From: a phage | Assembly: GCA_036253495.1 (NCBI GenBank) | Contig: GCA_036253495.1_4125.1 | Length of the DNA: 64,000 bases | Reading direction: 5' to 3' (one strand) | Part shown: positions 4,171-64,000 of the stretch, piece by piece | Numbering within the stretch: position 1 is the stretch's first letter | How the letters are laid out: every line of letters begins with the position of its first letter | Translations under genes and position numbers: made by a program | Notes under the pieces: generated by a model | What the model saw: the letters and a program-made list of their open reading frames with translations, nothing else | Databases searched by the model: none | Told to the model about the DNA's origin: nothing

Positions 4171-4717
4171 ACAAATGAAACAAGACTTATATATTATCAA
4201 AGCACTACGTAGTAAAGGTTATGAAATTGATGAAGTTATGGCAATGAGCATTGAGGAAATCGAAGCATTACCACTACCACAGCGTATCATTGAAAACGCA
4301 AAGGATTACAAAGCTCGTGGTGCTAAGCCAGTAGAAGTAATCAAAGAAAAGATTTTTGAAGATATTAGTGTAGATGAAGCATCTCGTAATGTTAAACCTG
4401 AAGTTATCGAAGAATACGTAGAAAATTCAGAAGATCAAGAAAAAGCACTAGAAGAAGTAAAACAAATTGTAGAAGAACAACAAGAATCTGTTGAATCCGA
4501 AGAAGATGTTGTTGTTATTGAGCGTATCGAAGCTTCCAAAGAAGATCTAGATATCATCAAAACTTCTCTACAATCAAAAGAACTAAAAACTGTAGCAGCA
4601 TATATCAAACACCTAAAAGCTGAAGTTCCAGAAGCAATTCTTGCAGCGGTTGATAGTTCAGTTGTATCTCGTTTAGTTAACGAGCGTATTGCTGAAGTAA
4701 AAGAAAATGCTAAATAA
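4139..4717 (+). CDS. hypothetical acidic protein
   Basis: 192-aa ORF; start uncertain (ATG at 4139, 4157 or 4175); glutamate-rich. Confidence 0.45.
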   Translation: MEKLKPMEQHKQMKQDLYIIKALRSKGYEIDEVMAMSIEEIEALPLPQRIIENAKDYKARGAKPVEVIKEKIFEDISVDEASRNVKPEVIEEYVENSEDQEKALEEVKQIVEEQQESVESEEDVVVIERIEASKEDLDIIKTSLQSKELKTVAAYIKHLKAEVPEAILAAVDSSVVSRLVNERIAEVKENAK

Positions 4718-4745
4718 TCCTATAATACTATAGGAGAACATTAGT

Positions 4746-5327
4746 ATGGCACAACAACAGATTGCGTTGCAGCAAATTAGAACTGGCAAACAGCGTGATT
4801 TACCAGATGCATTAGAAAAAGGTCAATTGGCATTCAGTACTGATGTAGGTCGTATGTTTGTTGGTTTACCTTCTTCATCTGACCCAGCTAGTATTGTAGC
4901 GGGTAGAACATGGGAAACTGACCCTAATTCTGGTAAAGAAAACGTGGAAATCATCACAGAATTTACCCCGTGGCAAACTGTTTCTAAAATTATAAATCGA
5001 CCATTCGTTTATGATTTACTTAAAGATGTAGAGACGTATGACATTTATATTCAAAGTCAAAGTCGTGTATTCGTTGATTACATTGCTTATAATACCAGTA
5101 ATACAATTCTTGAATCAGGAACTATTCAAATTGTAACGATTGGTGGAAACACTCTACTAACCCAATTTAACAATACCAACAGACCAGATGCTATTATATC
5201 TATTACATTCGAAAATCCAAGTTACGATGAACAAACTAAAAATATGAGTTTCACAGTTCGTAATAATGATTTTGCAGAATCAGGATATACTTTAGAATTT
5301 GTATACCGTGGGTGGGACAAACCTTAA
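4746..5327 (+). CDS. hypothetical protein
   Basis: 193-aa ORF; TATAAT-like box and GGAGA SD upstream. Confidence 0.55.
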   Translation: MAQQQIALQQIRTGKQRDLPDALEKGQLAFSTDVGRMFVGLPSSSDPASIVAGRTWETDPNSGKENVEIITEFTPWQTVSKIINRPFVYDLLKDVETYDIYIQSQSRVFVDYIAYNTSNTILESGTIQIVTIGGNTLLTQFNNTNRPDAIISITFENPSYDEQTKNMSFTVRNNDFAESGYTLEFVYRGWDKP

Positions 5328-26121: not shown

Positions 26122-26133
26122 TAGGAGAAAAAT

Positions 26134-45436: not shown

Positions 45437-47335
45437 ATGGAACCGATACGTGTACTATCACTATTCAATGGGATGAGTGTTGGGTATATGGCCTTGCAAA
45501 GTGCAGGAATACCAGTTGAAAAGTACTACTCATCTGAAATTGATAAATTTGCTATAGCTGAATCCCAGGCTAACTTTCCTGATATCATCCAATTGGGTGA
45601 TGTAACTAGATGGAAAGAATGGGATATCGAATGGGACAAGATAGATCTTCTGATGGGTGGTTTTCCTTGCTTCCCAGCAGGAACCATGATCATGACAAAT
45701 GAAGGTCATAAAGATATAAAAGATATAAAAATTGGTGATATGGTTCTTACACACACTGGACAATACCAAAAAGTATTGAGTATTGGTAGCAAGATTGCAC
45801 CAACAAGAATCATCACAGGTCAGGGACATATACCAATTGAATGCACTGATAATCATCCATTTTATGCGAGAAAAATGAGCAAGAAGTGGGATAATGAAAA
45901 ACGACAATATGTTCGTGAATATACAGAACCTACATGGATCGATGCACATGAACTCACAGAAGAACATGCTATATGTAATGTTCGTTGTAATGTGAATTTT
46001 CAACATAACAAGAGTGAAAGCTTTTGGTATTTCATGGGTAGATTTATGGGTGATGGATGGACTTACAAAGTAAAACGACAAAATAGAAAAAATAGTTATC
46101 AATATCGTGTTTTTATTTGCTGTGCTCATGATGAATTTGATGAATTGGTTTCATGTTTTGATGGTATGAATATGAAATATAATTTTGTTAAAGAAAGAAC
46201 ATCTTATAAATTCTATATTTGTTCAAAAGAACTAGTTGAATTTTGTGAACAAATGGGTAAGGGTGCTTCAAATAAACAAGTACACCCCACACTTTTCACT
46301 GAAAGTATCGCTAATCAGAAAGCATTCATTGATGGTTATTTTGACGCAGATGGTCACCATGACAAGAAAGATGATTGTTTAAAATTTACATCAACATCAA
46401 AGAATGTTATTCTTGGTATACAACAACTAATTATGAATGTGTATGGTCGTCATTCTAACATAACATACTTTAAACCGTCTGAAACAAAAGTTATAGAAGA
46501 ACGTGTTGTTAATCAGAAGCCGTATTACGTATTAACATACAAAAAAGAAAAGCACCGAAAAGATGAAGCATTCTATGATGATGGGTCATATTCATGGGTA
46601 AAAGGTGTTAAATCGAACACCACAACCGGAGAATGGAAAACCGTTTACAATATTGAAGTTGCAGTAGATAACACATATACGGCGAACAATATTGTAGTTC
46701 ATAACTGCCAAGCGTGGTCAGTTGCTGGGAAACAAGGCGGTGTGAATGATCCTCGTGGTATGTTATTCCATACAATGGTTGATATTTACCAGCACATAAA
46801 AAGTCTCAATCCTAACTTGAAAGTTCTTTTTGAGAATGTTAAGATGAAGGAAGATTTCAAGGATTATATCAATGGCGTGTTGGAAATGACACCAATTTTG
46901 ATAAACTCCCAGCATTACACGCCTCACTTCAGGCAACGTTACTACTGGTACAGTACTGATAAGTTATTCATACCACCTGCAATATCCAAAGCCCCAAAGC
47001 TTCAAGATATACTTGATGATGGTTGGTACACAGACAGAACCGCTTCGTACTGTATTGATGCCAATTACTTCAAGGGTGGAGATCCGAATCAGTACTTCAA
47101 TAAGTCAAGAAGACAAATCGTTTTCAAAGACCCTGATATCAACAGGAACTTCCTGATTGAGAAGGGTAAACGAAATGTGGACTATCGACATTTGACAGTG
47201 CAAGAGTGTTGCATTTTACAGGGAGTTGATGTAAACTATTTCAAAGTGTCAAGTAACACACAAGCGTACAAAATGCTTGGTAATGGCTGGACAGCACCTG
47301 TTATAGAACATTTACTTCGTGATATATTCTTTTAA
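45437..47335 (+). CDS. DNA (cytosine-5)-methyltransferase precursor interrupted by an intein
   Basis: 632-aa ORF; exteins carry motif I LFNGMSVG, IV GGFP|CQAWSVAG (split), VI LFENV, VIII RQRYYW, X GNGWTAPV; mature enzyme about 286 aa. Confidence 0.8.
   Translation: MEPIRVLSLFNGMSVGYMALQSAGIPVEKYYSSEIDKFAIAESQANFPDIIQLGDVTRWKEWDIEWDKIDLLMGGFPCFPAGTMIMTNEGHKDIKDIKIGDMVLTHTGQYQKVLSIGSKIAPTRIITGQGHIPIECTDNHPFYARKMSKKWDNEKRQYVREYTEPTWIDAHELTEEHAICNVRCNVNFQHNKSESFWYFMGRFMGDGWTYKVKRQNRKNSYQYRVFICCAHDEFDELVSCFDGMNMKYNFVKERTSYKFYICSKELVEFCEQMGKGASNKQVHPTLFTESIANQKAFIDGYFDADGHHDKKDDCLKFTSTSKNVILGIQQLIMNVYGRHSNITYFKPSETKVIEERVVNQKPYYVLTYKKEKHRKDEAFYDDGSYSWVKGVKSNTTTGEWKTVYNIEVAVDNTYTANNIVVHNCQAWSVAGKQGGVNDPRGMLFHTMVDIYQHIKSLNPNLKVLFENVKMKEDFKDYINGVLEMTPILINSQHYTPHFRQRYYWYSTDKLFIPPAISKAPKLQDILDDGWYTDRTASYCIDANYFKGGDPNQYFNKSRRQIVFKDPDINRNFLIEKGKRNVDYRHLTVQECCILQGVDVNYFKVSSNTQAYKMLGNGWTAPVIEHLLRDIFF
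45668..46705 (+). mobile_element. intein with LAGLIDADG homing-endonuclease domain
   Basis: 346 codons in frame; starts Cys (CFPAGT), block B TDNH, LAGLIDADG-like FMGRFMGDGW and FIDGYFDADGH, ends VVHN before extein Cys; removal restores GGFP-CQAWSVAG. Confidence 0.75.
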
Positions 47336-55588: not shown

Positions 55589-55774
55589 ATGACACTAGAT
55601 GAATGGCATAAAAGAAACGATAAGCTGTATGAAAATGATATTTTCTTCTTCGCATTCGGTGGTCTTGGAAGTATTTTACGTGATAGTGATGATTACTTCA
55701 ATTCGATCATTAGCTATTATGATTGCTATGGGACTATGTACGCCATAGCACGAACAACGGGATGTTACAAATGA
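55589..55774 (+). CDS. hypothetical protein
   Basis: 61-aa ORF. Confidence 0.4.
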   Translation: MTLDEWHKRNDKLYENDIFFFAFGGLGSILRDSDDYFNSIISYYDCYGTMYAIARTTGCYK

Positions 55775-55950
55775 CACATCAAGAATGGTTAGATGAATTA
55801 AAATTCAAACATGATCATTTTGGCTTTGGTGTACGCCAGGGTCATTATGATATTTTAAAAGATAAGAACAAGTTTAAATCATTTATCTTGGATGATGATA
55901 GTAATCGCTGGTTCATCTATGAGCTTGCGGTTAGAGGTAAAAAAAAATGA
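55771..55950 (+). CDS. MTH-EW mini-protein family member (MTHQEWLDEL...)
   Basis: 59 aa; one of five paralogs starting MTH(E/Q/A)(E/D)W. Confidence 0.45.
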   Translation: MTHQEWLDELKFKHDHFGFGVRQGHYDILKDKNKFKSFILDDDSNRWFIYELAVRGKKK

Positions 55951-55999
55951 CTAGTACTGATATATATGCTATTCTTTTGTTTTAATCAGGAGAACAATA

Positions 56000-56499: not shown

Positions 56500-56503
<4 letters not shown>
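56000..56503 (+). CDS. family-1 paralog (ITDEDVHFQESLV)
   Basis: 167 aa; family motif. Confidence 0.5.
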
Positions 56504-56687
<184 letters not shown>

Positions 56688-56688
56688 G

Positions 56689-56825
<137 letters not shown>

Positions 56826-56838
56826 CGAGGAATCCAAA

Positions 56839-57036
56839 GTGACTAAAGCAGAACTTGTAGCATTATTGGAATCATATCCCGATGATGCATGTATTGAAGT
56901 TGTTCATAGTGCGAGACATTTTGACATTGAAGATGTAGTACGTTATAATGACAAAGGTGTACTCATCATGGAACTATGTATTGGTGAAATGAAAACTGTA
57001 CCCGAATCAGAAAAACGTAAAAATAGTAAACCGTAA
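56839..57036 (+). CDS. hypothetical protein
   Basis: 65 aa; GTG start with GAGGAA SD. Confidence 0.45.
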   Translation: MTKAELVALLESYPDDACIEVVHSARHFDIEDVVRYNDKGVLIMELCIGEMKTVPESEKRKNSKP

Positions 57037-57046
57037 GGAAAATAAA

Positions 57047-57265
57047 ATGGAATCTACTCTATTAGAAGTTATTAACTCATTAAACGCTGGCGACAATGTT
57101 CAAGTACTCCTACAGGGATACCGTGTAAAAGGTTCAGTAGTTTTAGTTAATGACACCACTGTTGTTGTAACTGAAACTAACCCGTTTGACAGTAATGAAC
57201 TTGCTAATATCCATATTGATATTAAAAGTATTATTGGTGTTGGTGTAACTAAACCACAAGAATAA
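57047..57265 (+). CDS. hypothetical protein
   Basis: 72-aa ORF. Confidence 0.45.
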   Translation: MESTLLEVINSLNAGDNVQVLLQGYRVKGSVVLVNDTTVVVTETNPFDSNELANIHIDIKSIIGVGVTKPQE

Positions 57266-57286
57266 CAATTGTTATTGGGGATTACT

Positions 57287-57559
57287 ATGCATTTTGAAAA
57301 ATTCAATACAAATCGTAACACACGCATTGACGTTCTTTATGAAACACAAGACTCAATAAGCATTCGTACACGTAGTGGTGATGTATATCATGACTGTACT
57401 ATTGGTTGGGAACAGGGAAGAACACGTAGTGCAGAATTCGATAACTATCGCTTCTACCAAGGGGACACCACAATCTGGCCTGAAGACGTAGAAGATATTG
57501 CGATTGAAGATGAACATAAAGATGAATTTATAAAATTTAATCCCGAAACCGAATCATAA
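57287..57559 (+). CDS. hypothetical protein
   Basis: Start moved to ATG 57287 (track start is TTG). Confidence 0.45.
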   Translation: MHFEKFNTNRNTRIDVLYETQDSISIRTRSGDVYHDCTIGWEQGRTRSAEFDNYRFYQGDTTIWPEDVEDIAIEDEHKDEFIKFNPETES

Positions 57560-57599
57560 ATATTGGAACAGACTATAAAGATGTGATATAATTATTATC

Positions 57600-58018
57600 A
57601 TGATAACAAAATACATGGAACGTAAAATGTGGGGAAACGAATATAAATCAAAACAAGGAAATATTGGAGTTGCTCGTGCAATAGATTACTATGTCACAAA
57701 TGGTTATTCAGTGTCTATACCCATGAATGATACACAATCATATGACTTGATAGTTGATGATAATATTAAATTGTATAGAGTATCAGTAAAACAACATCAT
57801 ATAAAGCACCATCTGGAAATTATAATGTTCAACTAAAAAATAGTGGTGGTTCTAGCGGTAAAAGTGTTATACGAAATTTTGATAAAACATCGTGCGACAT
57901 ACTGTTTGTGTTGTGTGATAACAACGACATATATATCATCCCAATTGATGACATTGATGCACATTCAGCACTTACATTAACTGAAGAACGTAAGAAATAT
58001 ATTAGAAAATTATATTAA
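57600..58018 (+). CDS. Hjc-like PD-(D/E)XK endonuclease gene, apparently interrupted by a -1 frameshift
   Basis: Frame 0 (57600..57836) gives GNIGVARAIDYYVTNGYSVSIP...YDLIVDD...YRVSVK then stops; -1 frame from the GTAAAAC run continues TTSYKAPSGNYNVQLKNSGG...IYIIPIDDI to TAA at 58018; joined length about 138 aa. Confidence 0.4.
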
Positions 58019-58025
58019 AAAATAT

Positions 58026-59714
<1,689 letters not shown>

Positions 59715-59717
59715 TTC

Positions 59718-59873
<156 letters not shown>

Positions 59874-59901
59874 CAAAACGAAATGATAATAGGAAATTAA
59901 A

Positions 59902-60087
59902 ATGCAACTTTTAATTCTTTCAATATTGTATATTATTATAATGGTTCCTATATCAATACGTTTAATTATACTTGAACGATTTTTATCGAAACATGGAAAT
60001 AGATCTATGATATTTGTACCAATCGGGCTTATATTGTTTGGTATATTTGCATTTATAATGGGAATTAACGCTACATTCATTTCATAG
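59902..60087 (+). CDS. small hydrophobic protein
   Basis: 61-aa ORF after the tRNA cluster. Confidence 0.35.
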   Translation: MQLLILSILYIIIMVPISIRLIILERFLSKHGNRSMIFVPIGLILFGIFAFIMGINATFIS

Positions 60088-60096
60088 GAAACAAAT

Positions 60097-60578
<482 letters not shown>

Positions 60579-60585
60579 AAGAACG

Positions 60586-60618
<33 letters not shown>

Positions 60619-60619
60619 C

Positions 60620-60675
<56 letters not shown>

Positions 60676-60676
60676 T

Positions 60677-60807
<131 letters not shown>

Positions 60808-60808
60808 A

Positions 60809-60883
<75 letters not shown>

Positions 60884-60926
60884 GGTTCAAGAAGAAAACT
60901 GGGGTTTTTAACCTAACGAGGTCAAT

Positions 60927-61069
<143 letters not shown>

Positions 61070-61070
61070 A

Positions 61071-61201
<131 letters not shown>

Positions 61202-61202
61202 T

Positions 61203-61631
<429 letters not shown>

Positions 61632-61639
<8 letters not shown>

Positions 61640-61994
61640 TCTAATAGTACGTATAATGCAAGATGTTCGAAAGAACCTTTATACAGGCAATTTTGACGAT
61701 TCGAACATTAAACTATTATGTTATGATGGTTTTACCTTGGTACATCCATCTGAATCAAATAATATATACATATCATATACTTCCAAAAATCAATTATATC
61801 AATTTGATATATATAGCACAATGGCTAAAATAACTTTGGACGTATCCAAGCAGCCTATTCTTATCGCTGTACCAGAATGCAATTACACTGAAGAATCACT
61901 GTTTCAGTACTCAATGATAAATGACATTGGCGACTTGACATTAGAAGAGATTAACGCTATACTAGATGTATCACGTTTGATTAATGCCTACTAA
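61632..61994 (+). CDS. family-1 paralog (YTEESLFQYSMI)
   Basis: 120 aa; family motif. Confidence 0.5.
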
Positions 61995-62199
61995 TTTGGA
62001 GATTAATATGTTCTGGAATTTGTTATGTCTTTTTGGTCGTACCTTTGTTCTTGCAATTATTCATACACCAGGTATTCGTAATTTTGTTTCTTATGAATTT
62101 AAGAAAAATTATCACAACAATACTGAAGTTCGTGCCACTAAAATGTGCAAAGACTTCAATGTAACAGTACCACCATTTAAGAAGTACGAGGATGAATAA
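61984..62199 (+). CDS. hypothetical protein
   Basis: 71-aa ORF. Confidence 0.4.
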   Translation: MPTNLEINMFWNLLCLFGRTFVLAIIHTPGIRNFVSYEFKKNYHNNTEVRATKMCKDFNVTVPPFKKYEDE

Positions 62200-62477
62200 T
62201 GGAATTCATTGTAGCTCCTGAAGAACTCAAGACCTTTAAGTTCAAAGATAATTATACGTATTCAAATCATTCCTTGAATTCAATTCATGTAATTGCAATG
62301 GTTGCATCTGAATATAAAGATAACCCGTGTATTGATTTTAAAACCACTGATGGTGAATATACATGGGTGATCCCACGAGATAAATATAGTTATCAAGGGG
62401 CAGTAGAAATTCGTGACTCGATTCTAAAACAAATCGAAGATGGACATACTCATCCTAAACTAAACATTCAGTACTGA
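62199..62477 (+). CDS. hypothetical protein
   Basis: 92-aa ORF; stop lies inside an ATTCAGTACTGAA palindrome. Confidence 0.45.
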   Translation: MEFIVAPEELKTFKFKDNYTYSNHSLNSIHVIAMVASEYKDNPCIDFKTTDGEYTWVIPRDKYSYQGAVEIRDSILKQIEDGHTHPKLNIQY

Positions 62478-62727
62478 AAATGTTATACCGATAGCTTCTG
62501 GAGCAGTACTGAATCCTCCTTTTTCTTTCAGAAGCTATCACATATTTTGTCGTAAAATGGTACTGTGAGTGTTTTGTCTTTCCATTCTCTCCAGGTCCAG
62601 TACCTATCATTGTAGTTCTGGAGAGATATAACATGTATAATGTTTTTTACCTCCTGTTTATCATTATATATGTCACTAAACGAGTAATAACTACCCTCCC
62701 TCTAGGTTATTACTTTTGATTTTGGTA

Positions 62728-62756
62728 TTGACTTTCAATGCCGCAAATGTTATACT
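62728..62756 (+). promoter_or_regulatory. sigma70-type promoter (TTGACT-17-TATACT)
   Basis: Consensus-like boxes directly upstream of a terminator hairpin. Confidence 0.45.
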
Positions 62757-62759
62757 TAA

Positions 62760-62795
62760 GGCTGATTCAAATTGAATCGGCCTTTTTTTCTTTTT
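62760..62795 (+). terminator. intrinsic terminator overlapping the predicted transcription start
   Basis: GGCTGATTCA-AAT-TGAATCGGCC 10-bp stem then TTTTTTTCTTTTT; sits between -10 and the RBS of CDS 62808. Confidence 0.6.
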
Positions 62796-62807
62796 AAGGA
62801 GAACACC

Positions 62808-63203
62808 ATGAATTTGGTTGTAGAAGACGATATCTTTTCCGATGCTATTGAGTATATGTACAATCTTGTTAGACTTAATGAATTTGTACAACGTCATACA
62901 TTGACACATAAGGATGGGATTATTACTGTTGGTGCATACAATAATGGATACTTAACCGAGTTTTACAATTGTGATAACATTTTTATAACCATTGATAATA
63001 TCACTACGACTAATGACATATCCATTGATTTATTCAAAGATCATATTGAAATTGATATAGACAAGATGATTGCCATCGATATTGATCCTGTAATGTATGA
63101 GTTACAAGAAGAAATGTATGAGCAATTATGCTTTGTGTATGATTTGAGTAAAATTTCATTCTTTGACTTACGCAGAATCTGTTACGTAGTAGGTAAGTTA
63201 TGA
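62808..63203 (+). CDS. hypothetical protein
   Basis: Start moved to ATG 62808 (AAGGAGAA SD). Confidence 0.45.
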   Translation: MNLVVEDDIFSDAIEYMYNLVRLNEFVQRHTLTHKDGIITVGAYNNGYLTEFYNCDNIFITIDNITTTNDISIDLFKDHIEIDIDKMIAIDIDPVMYELQEEMYEQLCFVYDLSKISFFDLRRICYVVGKL

Positions 63204-63673
63204 CAAATATACGTGATGTATTAATGCAGTACGGTATCAGTACTGAAATGCTTTCAGTTGAAATTATTAAAAACTCTAAGATAGAATTTATGTTTAATAG
63301 ACACCGTTATCCAGGTGTTTATATTAATCGATCCTGTTCATTAATTTACTTTGAATACATGGATGAATATGTTATCATTGAAGAAATCAAACTCAATGGA
63401 TGGCACTGTACAATTGAGTTAACGAAACCAAGAACCAAGAACAAAATAGTGATTAGTATTAATATCTATTACGATATTAGTACTGAAGATGGAGCCTCAC
63501 ACTTTGTTCGAGTTTTGTCATCTGATGATAATTTAAAGTTAGATTATAAATCAGAAGAAGAATACTTTCAGGAAAGTTTAATCAATGATTTAGTTTTTGA
63601 TTATAACTTTTATAAAGAACTATCAAAAAACTTCGTTGAATGTATCAAACTATATGAGGAAGAGGACGAATGA
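63200..63673 (+). CDS. family-1 paralog (KSEEEYFQESLI)
   Basis: 157 aa; motif encoded at 63551..63580. Confidence 0.5.
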   Translation: MTNIRDVLMQYGISTEMLSVEIIKNSKIEFMFNRHRYPGVYINRSCSLIYFEYMDEYVIIEEIKLNGWHCTIELTKPRTKNKIVISINIYYDISTEDGASHFVRVLSSDDNLKLDYKSEEEYFQESLINDLVFDYNFYKELSKNFVECIKLYEEEDE

Positions 63674-64000
63674 AAAATTATAAGTTAAGTACAGAATACA
63701 ATGAAATGATCATCAATGCACTTGATAATCATGGTGAGTTTCGTTATCCAGGTGAAGGATTGAACGTTTACTTCGGAGATGAAAACTGGTGCTATCTGAA
63801 TAATGGTGTTCTGACTATCCATATTCAGGATATTAAAAGTGATGTATCATTTGGAATTCACCTAGTTCCCGGTACATTGGTTAATGACGCACGTATCAAT
63901 GTTATTGTCAATGAGAACGAATTCTTTCATGATGATTTTGAAGATGTTAAAATGGCAGCTAGTAAGTTGTATACTACTGAAGAAGAGTACTTTCAGGATA
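63670..64000 (+). CDS. family-1 paralog, 3'-partial (TTEEEYFQD... runs off window)
   Basis: ATG 63670 (ATGA overlap); motif at window end; truncated by the window edge. Confidence 0.45.
   Translation, partial: MKNYKLSTEYNEMIINALDNHGEFRYPGEGLNVYFGDENWCYLNNGVLTIHIQDIKSDVSFGIHLVPGTLVNDARINVIVNENEFFHDDFEDVKMAASKLYTTEEEYFQD

What the first reader, a model, noticed from the sequence alone, without database searches (positions are those of the whole stretch)
57600..58018. Hjc-like nuclease gene interrupted by a -1 frameshift at an A-run
Frame 0 reads an Hjc/restriction-endonuclease-like N-terminus ending YDLIVDDNIKLYRVSVK and stops 16 codons later. The -1 frame entered at GTAAAAC (about 57786..57792) continues with TTSYKAPSGNYNVQLKNSGG... 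for 73 more codons to 58018, giving a protein of about 138 aa. This is either a pseudogenised homing-type nuclease, a programmed frameshift, or a homopolymer sequencing error. It sits directly before the tRNA-like element at 58026.
Basis: seen in the sequence. Interest (0 to 1): 0.45.

Follow-up and report, generated by a model that had tools for sequence, protein, structure and literature searches.

The report
Frameshifted homing nuclease gene in phage
A small selfish DNA-cutting enzyme gene in the tRNA gene cluster of a giant E. coli phage is broken by the loss of one A from a run of five, which is ordinary decay of a selfish gene (or a single base-calling error) and not programmed frameshifting.

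Summary
One reading frame runs from 57600/57627 to Lys-55 (AAA 57789-57791). The -1 frame then continues from 57791 to the stop at 58016-58018.

The joined 130-aa protein is a full-length member of Pfam PF11645, the I-Ssp6803I family of PD-(D/E)XK homing endonucleases (77 bits, spanning the junction). It is only distantly Hjc-like.

Thirteen other copies of the gene all carry GTAAAAAC (A5) and a single ORF. They include phage WPEC5, two allele clades in metagenomes, and a 377-nt E. coli WGS contig that matches the window at all 376 compared bases apart from that one extra A. The window's A4 is therefore a private one-base loss. Programmed frameshifting is effectively excluded: it is not conserved, there is no heptamer, and there is no downstream structure.

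Whether the loss is a real recent mutation or an error cannot be settled without reads. I lean towards real (about 0.6), because 62 kb of the window compared with phage A4 shows no other gene-breaking indel.

Context: the gene is a free-standing cassette (57598-58020). It sits exactly where related phages carry tRNA-Ser(UGA), at the edge of an imported recombination patch. Its homologues in unrelated phages also abut tRNA genes.

The finding is ordinary, and interest is low.

The parts
57563..57592 (+). Sigma-70-like promoter TTGGAA-N18-TATAAT with a TG extended -10. In related phages the same promoter drives tRNA-Ser(UGA).
   Evidence: Best site in the scan, 10 of 12 matches with TG. The sequence is shared with Turkey3 and WPEC5 up to 57597.
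57598..58020 (+). Nuclease cassette: the segment that occupies the slot where A4, Turkey3, 121Q, L028, L029 and L030 carry tRNA-Ser(UGA).
   Evidence: Identity to Turkey3 (99.6%) ends at 57597. Homology to A4, L029 and L030 resumes at 58021.
57627..57791 (+). N-terminal coding part (residues 1-55, MWGNEYK...RVSVK) from the conserved start codon, in frame 0.
   Evidence: The upstream in-frame ATGs at 57600 and 57615 are out of frame in the other alleles.
57788..57791 (+). A4 run, the frameshift site. All other copies have A5 here.
   Evidence: Alignments of 13 homologous loci.
57792..57836 (+). Out-of-frame tail (QHHIKHHLEIIMFN) and premature stop TAA 57834-57836. The product as encoded is 69 aa from ATG 57627.
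57791..58018 (+). C-terminal coding part in the -1 frame (residues 56-130, TTSYK...RKLY, stop 58016-58018).
   Evidence: It is 100% identical to WP_262846241.1 (P0065).
58026..58108 (+). Adjacent tRNA-Arg(UCU)-like gene without a D-arm, 8 nt after the nuclease stop. It forms the right-hand homology arm of the cassette.
   Evidence: Rfam tRNA model 32.6 bits against a gathering score of 29, with the 15 D-arm model positions replaced by 4 nt. It is 100% conserved in four phages. ARAGORN does not call it.
56770..57597 (+). Imported left flank (three small ORFs plus the promoter). It is absent from the A4-type backbone and, within the 56695-57597 alignment, 99.6% identical to nuclease-less phage Turkey3.

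Best explanation
The locus is a free-standing homing-endonuclease gene of the I-Ssp6803I family (Pfam PF11645, PD-(D/E)XK fold, 130 aa). It lies in the tRNA gene cluster of an Asteriusvirus-type jumbo coliphage. It is transcribed from the promoter that in sister phages drives tRNA-Ser(UGA), and it occupies exactly that tRNA's slot. Shown: in this sequence the gene has lost one A from an A5 run (57788-57791). Translation therefore ends after 55 native residues plus 14 out-of-frame residues. The 69-aa product keeps the Asp and Lys of the active-site motif but lacks six of the nine predicted beta-strands and the invariant residues T56, L70, G74, F85, D91 and F94, so it should be inactive. Shown: the loss is private to this sequence and sits on an otherwise identical allele. 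Inferred: I read it as a very recent, genuine loss-of-function mutation, the first step of the decay expected of a homing endonuclease gene that no longer meets empty target sites. Inferred: in its intact form the enzyme would cut nuclease-less sister genomes in or next to the tRNA-Ser(UGA)/tRNA-Arg-like region during co-infection, and would be copied in by recombinational repair together with flanking DNA.
For: Family: PF11645 at 77.2 bits against a cut-off of 26.1, spanning the junction. PDB 2OST matches at E = 5e-5 by sequence. The AF2 model of the 95%-identical intact homologue (pLDDT 89.5) matches 2OST at E = 6e-9, TM 0.76. Private lesion: 12 loci in two allele clades have A5. Contig JAHTWN010000358.1 is identical to the window over 376 nt except for A5 against A4. 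Recent selection on the joined frame: dN/dS is 0.03-0.06 on both sides of the shift. Genuine rather than error: against phage A4 (98.5-99.7% identical over about 62 kb), every 1-2 nt indel is intergenic or falls in the last two codons of a small ORF, and coding indels are multiples of 3, even though the window has 359 homopolymers of 5 nt or more. The only mid-gene frameshift is in the one gene expected to be dispensable. Homing-type behaviour: the gene is present in 1 of 45 related phage records. It is mutually exclusive with tRNA-Ser(UGA). It lies at the right edge of a 1.25-kb imported patch whose left part is 99.6% identical to a nuclease-less phage. Homologues in Tequintavirus, Vequintavirinae, Thalassavirus, a mycobacteriophage and four metagenomic contigs all sit within tRNA clusters, most of them 0-12 nt upstream of a tRNA.
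Against: There is no substitution between the window and the intact JAHTWN copy, so a real mutation would have to be extremely recent. No independent assembly carries A4, and the truncated 78-aa and 69-aa products are not on record anywhere. Loss of one base from a homopolymer is also the commonest kind of base-calling error, and reads are not available here. Endonuclease activity, target site and homing have not been demonstrated for this clade. The middle residue of the (D/E)xK motif is Ser, where I-Ssp6803I has Gln.
Confidence: 0.58

Rival explanations
1. Sequencing or assembly artefact: the phage really has A5 and an intact, functional 130-aa homing endonuclease gene, and one A was dropped in base calling or consensus polishing.
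For: The only difference from an independent copy of the same allele is the homopolymer length. dN/dS of 0.03-0.06 shows the frame was under selection until essentially now. A4 has not been seen in any other assembly.
Against: The run is short (5 to 4). The rest of the window shows no error-like gene-breaking indel in about 62 kb with 359 runs of 5 nt or more. A single random error would have to fall in a 390-nt selfish gene that makes up 0.6% of the window.
Confidence: 0.36
2. Programmed -1 ribosomal frameshift (or deliberately low-level slippage on A_AAA_C) that limits production of a toxic nuclease.
For: tRNA-Lys can re-pair perfectly one base back on A_AAA, so a trace of full-length protein is conceivable (read from the sequence; inference).
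Against: All 13 other copies encode the protein in one frame with A5. There is no X_XXY_YYZ heptamer in the zero frame. There is no downstream structure (MFE -8.4 kcal/mol, z = 0.35). A run of four A's is, from general knowledge, too short for transcriptional slippage.
Confidence: 0.03
3. Two independent small genes (a 69-78-aa N-terminal protein and a separate C-terminal ORF) rather than one broken gene.
For: ORFs of 78 aa and 36-45 aa can be listed mechanically.
Against: No relative has two genes here. The Pfam match and the 2OST fold run continuously across the junction. The C-terminal piece has no conserved start codon.
Confidence: 0.01

Closest known systems
I-Ssp6803I (PDB 2OST), the PD-(D/E)XK homing endonuclease of Synechocystis and founding member of Pfam PF11645
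   Same: Same Pfam family. It is the best sequence hit and the best fold hit. Size is similar (130 against 150 aa). The aligned motif is YDL...V(Q/S)VK. Both are associated with tRNA genes: I-Ssp6803I is encoded in the intron of tRNA-fMet (PMC1995217, PMC13011429).
   Different: Identity is about 24%. The gene here is free-standing, not intron-encoded, and no group I intron model matches in 56500-59900. It lies between genes of a phage tRNA cluster rather than inside a tRNA. The middle motif residue is Ser, not Gln. The copy here is frameshifted. Activity and target are untested.
SegB of phage T4 (GIY-YIG free-standing homing endonuclease in the T4 tRNA gene cluster; PMC2330249)
   Same: Same lifestyle: a free-standing nuclease gene inside a phage tRNA cluster. 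It causes preferential inheritance of the tRNA region with co-conversion of flanks. This matches the sporadic distribution and the recombination boundary seen here.
   Different: The catalytic fold is unrelated (GIY-YIG against PD-(D/E)XK). Homing is demonstrated experimentally for SegB and only inferred here.
Stand-alone PDDEXK_5 genes counted among the homing endonucleases of Jug jumbo gut phages (PMC12880540)
   Same: Same Pfam family, stand-alone genes, jumbo phages.
   Different: The host and phage lineage differ. That paper (in the passage read) does not report the tRNA-abutting position or the replacement of a tRNA gene.
Archaeal Holliday junction resolvase Hjc
   Same: Same PD-(D/E)XK superfamily core fold. 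The literature notes the Hjc / I-Ssp6803I similarity (PMC3384342).
   Different: There is no Pfam Hjc hit at E of 1 or below. Foldseek gives E about 0.03 and TM 0.43-0.58 for Hjc, against E 6e-9 and TM 0.76 for 2OST.

Membership tests
PF11645 / I-Ssp6803I-family PD-(D/E)XK homing endonucleases | Sequence match to the family profile above the curated threshold over most of its length | tested here: met
   The joined protein scores 77.2 bits (cut-off 26.1) over profile positions 5-121 of 138. The N-terminal fragment alone scores 45.5 bits.
PF11645 / I-Ssp6803I-family PD-(D/E)XK homing endonucleases | Restriction-endonuclease-like alpha/beta core fold resembling 2OST | tested here: met
   The AF2 model of the 95%-identical intact homologue P0001 has pLDDT 89.5. 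Foldseek places 2OST chains at ranks 1-4 (E 6e-9 to 3e-6, TM 0.68-0.77). The window's own joined sequence could not be submitted.
PF11645 / I-Ssp6803I-family PD-(D/E)XK homing endonucleases | Catalytic Asp and Lys of the D...(D/E)xK motif | tested here: met
   D40 and K55 are invariant in 57 homologues, and D35 and D91 are also invariant. The middle position is S53, where I-Ssp6803I has Q. The catalytic role of these residues is inferred, not tested.
PF11645 / I-Ssp6803I-family PD-(D/E)XK homing endonucleases | Uninterrupted reading frame encoding the whole domain | tested here: not met
   An A4 instead of A5 at 57788-57791 truncates the product to 69 aa.
PF11645 / I-Ssp6803I-family PD-(D/E)XK homing endonucleases | [quoted passage not shown] | tested here: not met
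   No group I intron model matches in 56500-59900 at E of 1 or below. The gene lies between a promoter and a tRNA-like gene, so it is free-standing.
PF11645 / I-Ssp6803I-family PD-(D/E)XK homing endonucleases | Site-specific cleavage of a long, pseudo-palindromic target and homing into it | not testable with these tools
   Only indirect evidence is available: sporadic presence (1 of 45 records), mutual exclusion with tRNA-Ser(UGA), and a position at a recombination boundary.
Programmed -1 ribosomal frameshift sites | Slippery heptamer X_XXY_YYZ in the zero frame | tested here: not met
   The zero frame reads GUA_AAA_CAA, so only a single-tRNA slip on A_AAA is possible.
Programmed -1 ribosomal frameshift sites | Stimulatory downstream RNA structure | tested here: not met
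   Bases 57792-57870 have an MFE of -8.4 kcal/mol, z = 0.35, and 131 of 200 shuffles fold at least as well.
Programmed -1 ribosomal frameshift sites | Frameshift conserved among homologues | tested here: not met
   All 13 other copies have A5 and a single ORF. All 56 database homologues in the alignment are single ORFs of 127-178 aa.
Hjc Holliday junction resolvases | Sequence or fold closer to Hjc than to other PD-(D/E)XK families | tested here: not met
   There is no Hjc Pfam hit. The Hjc structures rank below 2OST by about seven orders of magnitude in E-value.
Free-standing phage homing endonuclease genes (SegB-like lifestyle) | Sporadic presence between conserved genes and coincidence with a boundary of genetic exchange | tested here: met
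   Only WPEC5 among 45 related records carries it. The imported patch 56770-58020 ends exactly at the right edge of the cassette.

The most novel reading that the evidence does not exclude
The phage branch of PF11645 seen here may be a lineage of free-standing homing endonucleases specialised on tRNA gene clusters. The copies examined sit within tRNA clusters, and most abut the 5' end of a tRNA gene, in unrelated phage families (Asteriusvirus, Tequintavirus, Vequintavirinae, Thalassavirus, a mycobacteriophage and metagenomic large phages). They may exploit the inverted-repeat DNA of tRNA stems as pseudo-palindromic targets. By cassette replacement they can delete or swap tRNA genes, here tRNA-Ser(UGA), which would make them a driver of turnover in phage tRNA repertoires.
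Probability: 0.45. Interest if true: 0.45.

Novelty: new member of a known kind. Interest (0 to 1): 0.2.

Why it matters
For annotation, this should be called one disrupted PD-(D/E)XK (I-Ssp6803I-family) homing endonuclease gene, or a frameshift to be checked against the reads. It should not be called two hypothetical proteins or a recoding site.

For biology, the frameshift itself is routine. The context gives a tidy natural example of a selfish nuclease cassette that took the place of a tRNA gene and marks a recombination boundary in a jumbo phage. It also suggests that this nuclease family is tied to tRNA clusters across very different phages.

Tried and rejected
Programmed frameshift was rejected: it is not conserved, there is no heptamer, and there is no downstream structure.

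A group I intron context was rejected: Rfam finds only tRNAs in 56500-59900.

Pervasive homopolymer error in the assembly was rejected by the indel census against A4.

I searched for an independent A4 allele, or for the source genome, by several routes.
- Exact-pattern scans of viral, genome and metagenome contigs found nothing.
- Complete E. coli genomes gave no match.
- Exact look-ups of the truncated 78-aa and 69-aa products found nothing on record.

NCBIfam gave no hit, and PHROGs gave only phrog_5018, of unknown function.

The window's own joined protein could not be submitted for structure prediction, so the 95%-identical intact homologue was modelled instead.

Zhao et al. 2007 (the I-Ssp6803I structure paper) is not held, so the catalytic-residue assignments for 2OST were not checked against the primary paper.

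My first dN/dS run had the repair base misplaced by one position. It was corrected.

Full report
**Observation**

The window comes from an Asteriusvirus-type jumbo coliphage (the 121Q/PBECO4 group).
- It is 98.5-99.7% identical to Escherichia phage A4 over 88-56769 and 58293-64000.
- At the flagged site, frame 0 from ATG 57600 reads ...YDLIVDDNIKLYRVSVK, followed by 14 unrelated residues and a stop at 57834-57836.
- The -1 frame reads TTSYKAPSGNYNVQLKNSGG...RKLY to the stop at 58016-58018.
- tblastn of the joined protein against the window finds just these two collinear pieces in two frames and no second copy.

**What the gene is**

The joined protein matches Pfam PF11645 (PDDEXK_5) at 77.2 bits against a curated cut-off of 26.1. 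The match covers profile positions 5-121 of 138 and runs continuously across the junction.
- By sequence, the only solved structure that matches is 2OST (E = 5e-5). The fold-search library identifies 2OST as the homing endonuclease I-Ssp6803I.
- The window's own joined sequence could not be submitted for modelling. I therefore modelled P0001, an intact homologue that is 95% identical (pLDDT 89.5, pTM 0.84).
- Foldseek puts the four 2OST chains first (E = 6e-9 to 3e-6, TM up to 0.77). Hjc resolvases appear only at E about 0.03.
- 'Hjc-like' is therefore right at superfamily level. The literature notes the Hjc / I-Ssp6803I resemblance (PMC3384342). The family, however, is the I-Ssp6803I family.
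- In an alignment of 57 homologues, D35, D40, K55, T56, G74, F85, D91 and F94 are invariant. K55 is the last residue encoded before the shift and T56 the first after it, so the invariant SVKT motif exists only in the joined reading.

**Start codon**

Three in-frame ATGs (57600, 57615, 57627) exist in the window. In the WPEC5-type alleles an extra A puts the first ATG out of frame. In the L007/L008 alleles another indel puts the second out of frame. All homologues start MWG(N/S)EYK. The conserved start is therefore 57627 and the intact product is 130 aa, not 138.

**Is the frameshift conserved?**

It is not.
- Phage WPEC5 has an intact CDS (XUI95342.1) with GTAAAAAC.
- Eleven further loci from genome and metagenome assemblies also have A5. 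They represent two allele clades, 96% and 88% identical to the window.
- The most telling case is a 377-nt contig from an E. coli WGS assembly (JAHTWN010000358.1). Its product, WP_262846241.1, is named 'group I intron-associated PD-(D/E)XK endonuclease, partial'. It matches the window at all 376 compared bases (57730-58106) and shares every window-specific SNP. The only difference is that it has A5.
- With the missing A restored, dN/dS against WPEC5 is 0.04 upstream and 0.03 downstream of the junction. Against the distant allele it is 0.02 and 0.06. The joined frame has therefore been under strong purifying selection on both sides until essentially the present.

**Programmed frameshifting is excluded for practical purposes**

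- The shift is not conserved among homologues.
- The zero frame reads GUA_AAA_CAA, which is not an X_XXY_YYZ heptamer.
- The 79 nt downstream fold no better than shuffled sequence (z = 0.35).
- Four A's are, from general knowledge, too few for transcriptional slippage.
- At most a trace of single-tRNA slippage on A_AAA could occur.

**Real mutation or error?**

This cannot be decided without reads, but the window can be audited.
- Against A4, about 62 kb of alignment contains about 490 substitutions and only 14 indel events.
- Checked against the A4 CDS coordinates, the 1-2 nt indels at window positions 26133, 26977, 33034, 36638 and 62783 are all intergenic.
- The one at 55939 only changes the last two codons of a small ORF, in an A-run that also varies in Turkey3.
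- The remaining indels inside coding sequence are multiples of three, apart from a 3+5-nt pair at 59575-59583 that only reshapes the extreme C-terminus of one ORF.
- The window contains 359 homopolymers of 5 nt or more. Random homopolymer errors would mostly hit coding sequence, yet the only mid-gene frameshift is in the one gene expected to be dispensable. That pattern is what selection-filtered real variation looks like.
- Against this, the lesion sits on a background of zero other differences. It has never been seen in another assembly. It is also the commonest type of base-calling error.
- My estimate is about 0.6 real, about 0.35 artefact.

**Context**

The gene is a cassette, and it sits in a slot that other phages use for a tRNA.
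- A4, Turkey3, 121Q and three further contigs (L028-L030) have tRNA-Ser(UGA) in this position. It lies between the same promoter (TTGGAA-N18-TATAAT with an extended -10, 57563-57592) and the same downstream tRNA-like gene.
- The nuclease-bearing loci checked with ARAGORN (L001, L007, L009, L010) all lack that tRNA.
- Only 1 of 45 related phage records carries the nuclease.
- In fine mapping, window 56695-57597 is 99.56% identical, without gaps, to nuclease-less Turkey3 right up to the swap point. Homology to the nearest backbones (A4, L029, L030) stops at 56769 and resumes exactly at 58021, the right end of the cassette.
- The window is therefore an A4-type backbone with a 1.25-kb imported patch, and the nuclease gene forms its right edge.
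- This is the signature described for free-standing phage homing endonucleases: co-conversion of flanks, and nucleases at boundaries of genetic exchange (PMC2330249 for SegB in the T4 tRNA cluster; PMC10448857).
- It is evidence for recent mobility by recombination. It does not prove that this enzyme made the break.

**Wider pattern, noticed while looking for relatives**

I inspected ten loci carrying more distant homologues (about 40-70% identity). They represent nine distinct contexts, and all lie inside tRNA clusters.
- In six of the nine contexts the nuclease ORF ends 0-12 nt before, or overlapping, a tRNA gene.
- L019 abuts tRNA-Arg(UCU).
- L021 and L022 (one context) abut tRNA-Ser(UGA).
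- UPEC06 and a Klebsiella phage abut tRNA-Tyr.
- The Tequintavirus SelmaRatti abuts tRNA-Ser(GCU).
- Mycobacteriophage Wilder lies between tRNA-Gly and tRNA-Lys.
- Vibrio phage AG74 (between tRNA-Met and tRNA-Asn) and L020 (after tRNA-Ser(UGA)) lie within about 100 nt of a tRNA.
- The founding members of PF11645 are encoded in group I introns of tRNA-fMet (PMC1995217, PMC13011429). I-Ssp6803I recognises a pseudo-palindromic target (PMC3384342).
- It is a reasonable inference that the phage branch also targets tRNA-gene DNA, but this is untested.
- Stand-alone PDDEXK_5 genes have already been counted among the homing endonucleases of other jumbo phages (PMC12880540), so the kind is known.

**Verdict**

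The interpretation narrows to a single broken I-Ssp6803I-family homing endonuclease gene carrying a private one-base loss in an A-run. That loss is either very recent decay of a selfish gene or a single consensus error. It is not recoding. This is an ordinary finding, a new member of a known kind. The tRNA-slot replacement and the cross-phage tRNA association are the only parts worth a follow-up.

Noticed in passing
window 58026-58108: A tRNA-like gene with an Arg(UCU) anticodon loop (CUUCUAA), a normal acceptor stem, T-arm and CCA end, but no D-arm (15 model positions replaced by 4 nt) and a variable region of about 21 nt. It scores 32.6 bits on the Rfam tRNA model, just above the gathering score of 29. 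ARAGORN misses it. Public records annotate it inconsistently, as tRNA-Leu(taa) in 121Q and tRNA-Arg in others. It is 100% identical in the window, WPEC5, Turkey3 and 121Q even though their flanks diverge.
   Followed up: partly
L019-L027 (homologue loci) and window 57627-58108: PF11645 homologues in unrelated phages (Tequintavirus, Vequintavirinae, Thalassavirus, a mycobacteriophage and four metagenomic contigs) all lie inside tRNA clusters. Most end 0-12 nt before a tRNA gene.
   Followed up: partly
window 55772-55954, 56500-56676, 58130-58297, 58264-58458, 58425-58619: A family of small paralogous genes (54-64 aa, starting MTH(E/Q/A)(E/D)WL) is scattered through the tRNA region, partly as overlapping tandem copies. 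Copy number differs between phages: two copies after the tRNA-like gene in A4, three in the window, WPEC5 and Turkey3. Many short-read contigs end about 145 nt after the nuclease stop, just inside the first copy of this array.
   Followed up: no
window 56695-58020: Mosaicism: an A4-type backbone carries a 1.25-kb patch. The left part (three small ORFs) is 99.6% identical to Turkey3. The right part is the nuclease cassette.
   Followed up: yes
window ~55939: An A-run of variable length (A9 in the window, A7 in A4 and WPEC5, A8 in Turkey3) changes the last two or three codons and the stop of a small MTHQEW-family ORF.
   Followed up: partly
window ~59378 (ORF 59123-59596): An in-frame 18-nt tandem repeat expansion (AAAGAAATA units, giving KEIKEIKEI) relative to A4. 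The ORF also has a different C-terminal end at 59575-59590.
   Followed up: no
window ~46975-46990: A short, locally divergent stretch with compensating 3-nt deletion and insertion relative to A4. It lies inside the orthologue of the A4 DNA-cytosine methyltransferase gene.
   Followed up: no
L006 (WPEC5) 2327-2722 and 4524-5066; L009 5912-6393: Other homing-type nuclease genes (HNH, NUMOD4/HNH_3) sit in the same tRNA region of related phages but not at the corresponding places in the window. The tRNA cluster therefore appears to be a hotspot for different selfish nucleases.
   Followed up: no
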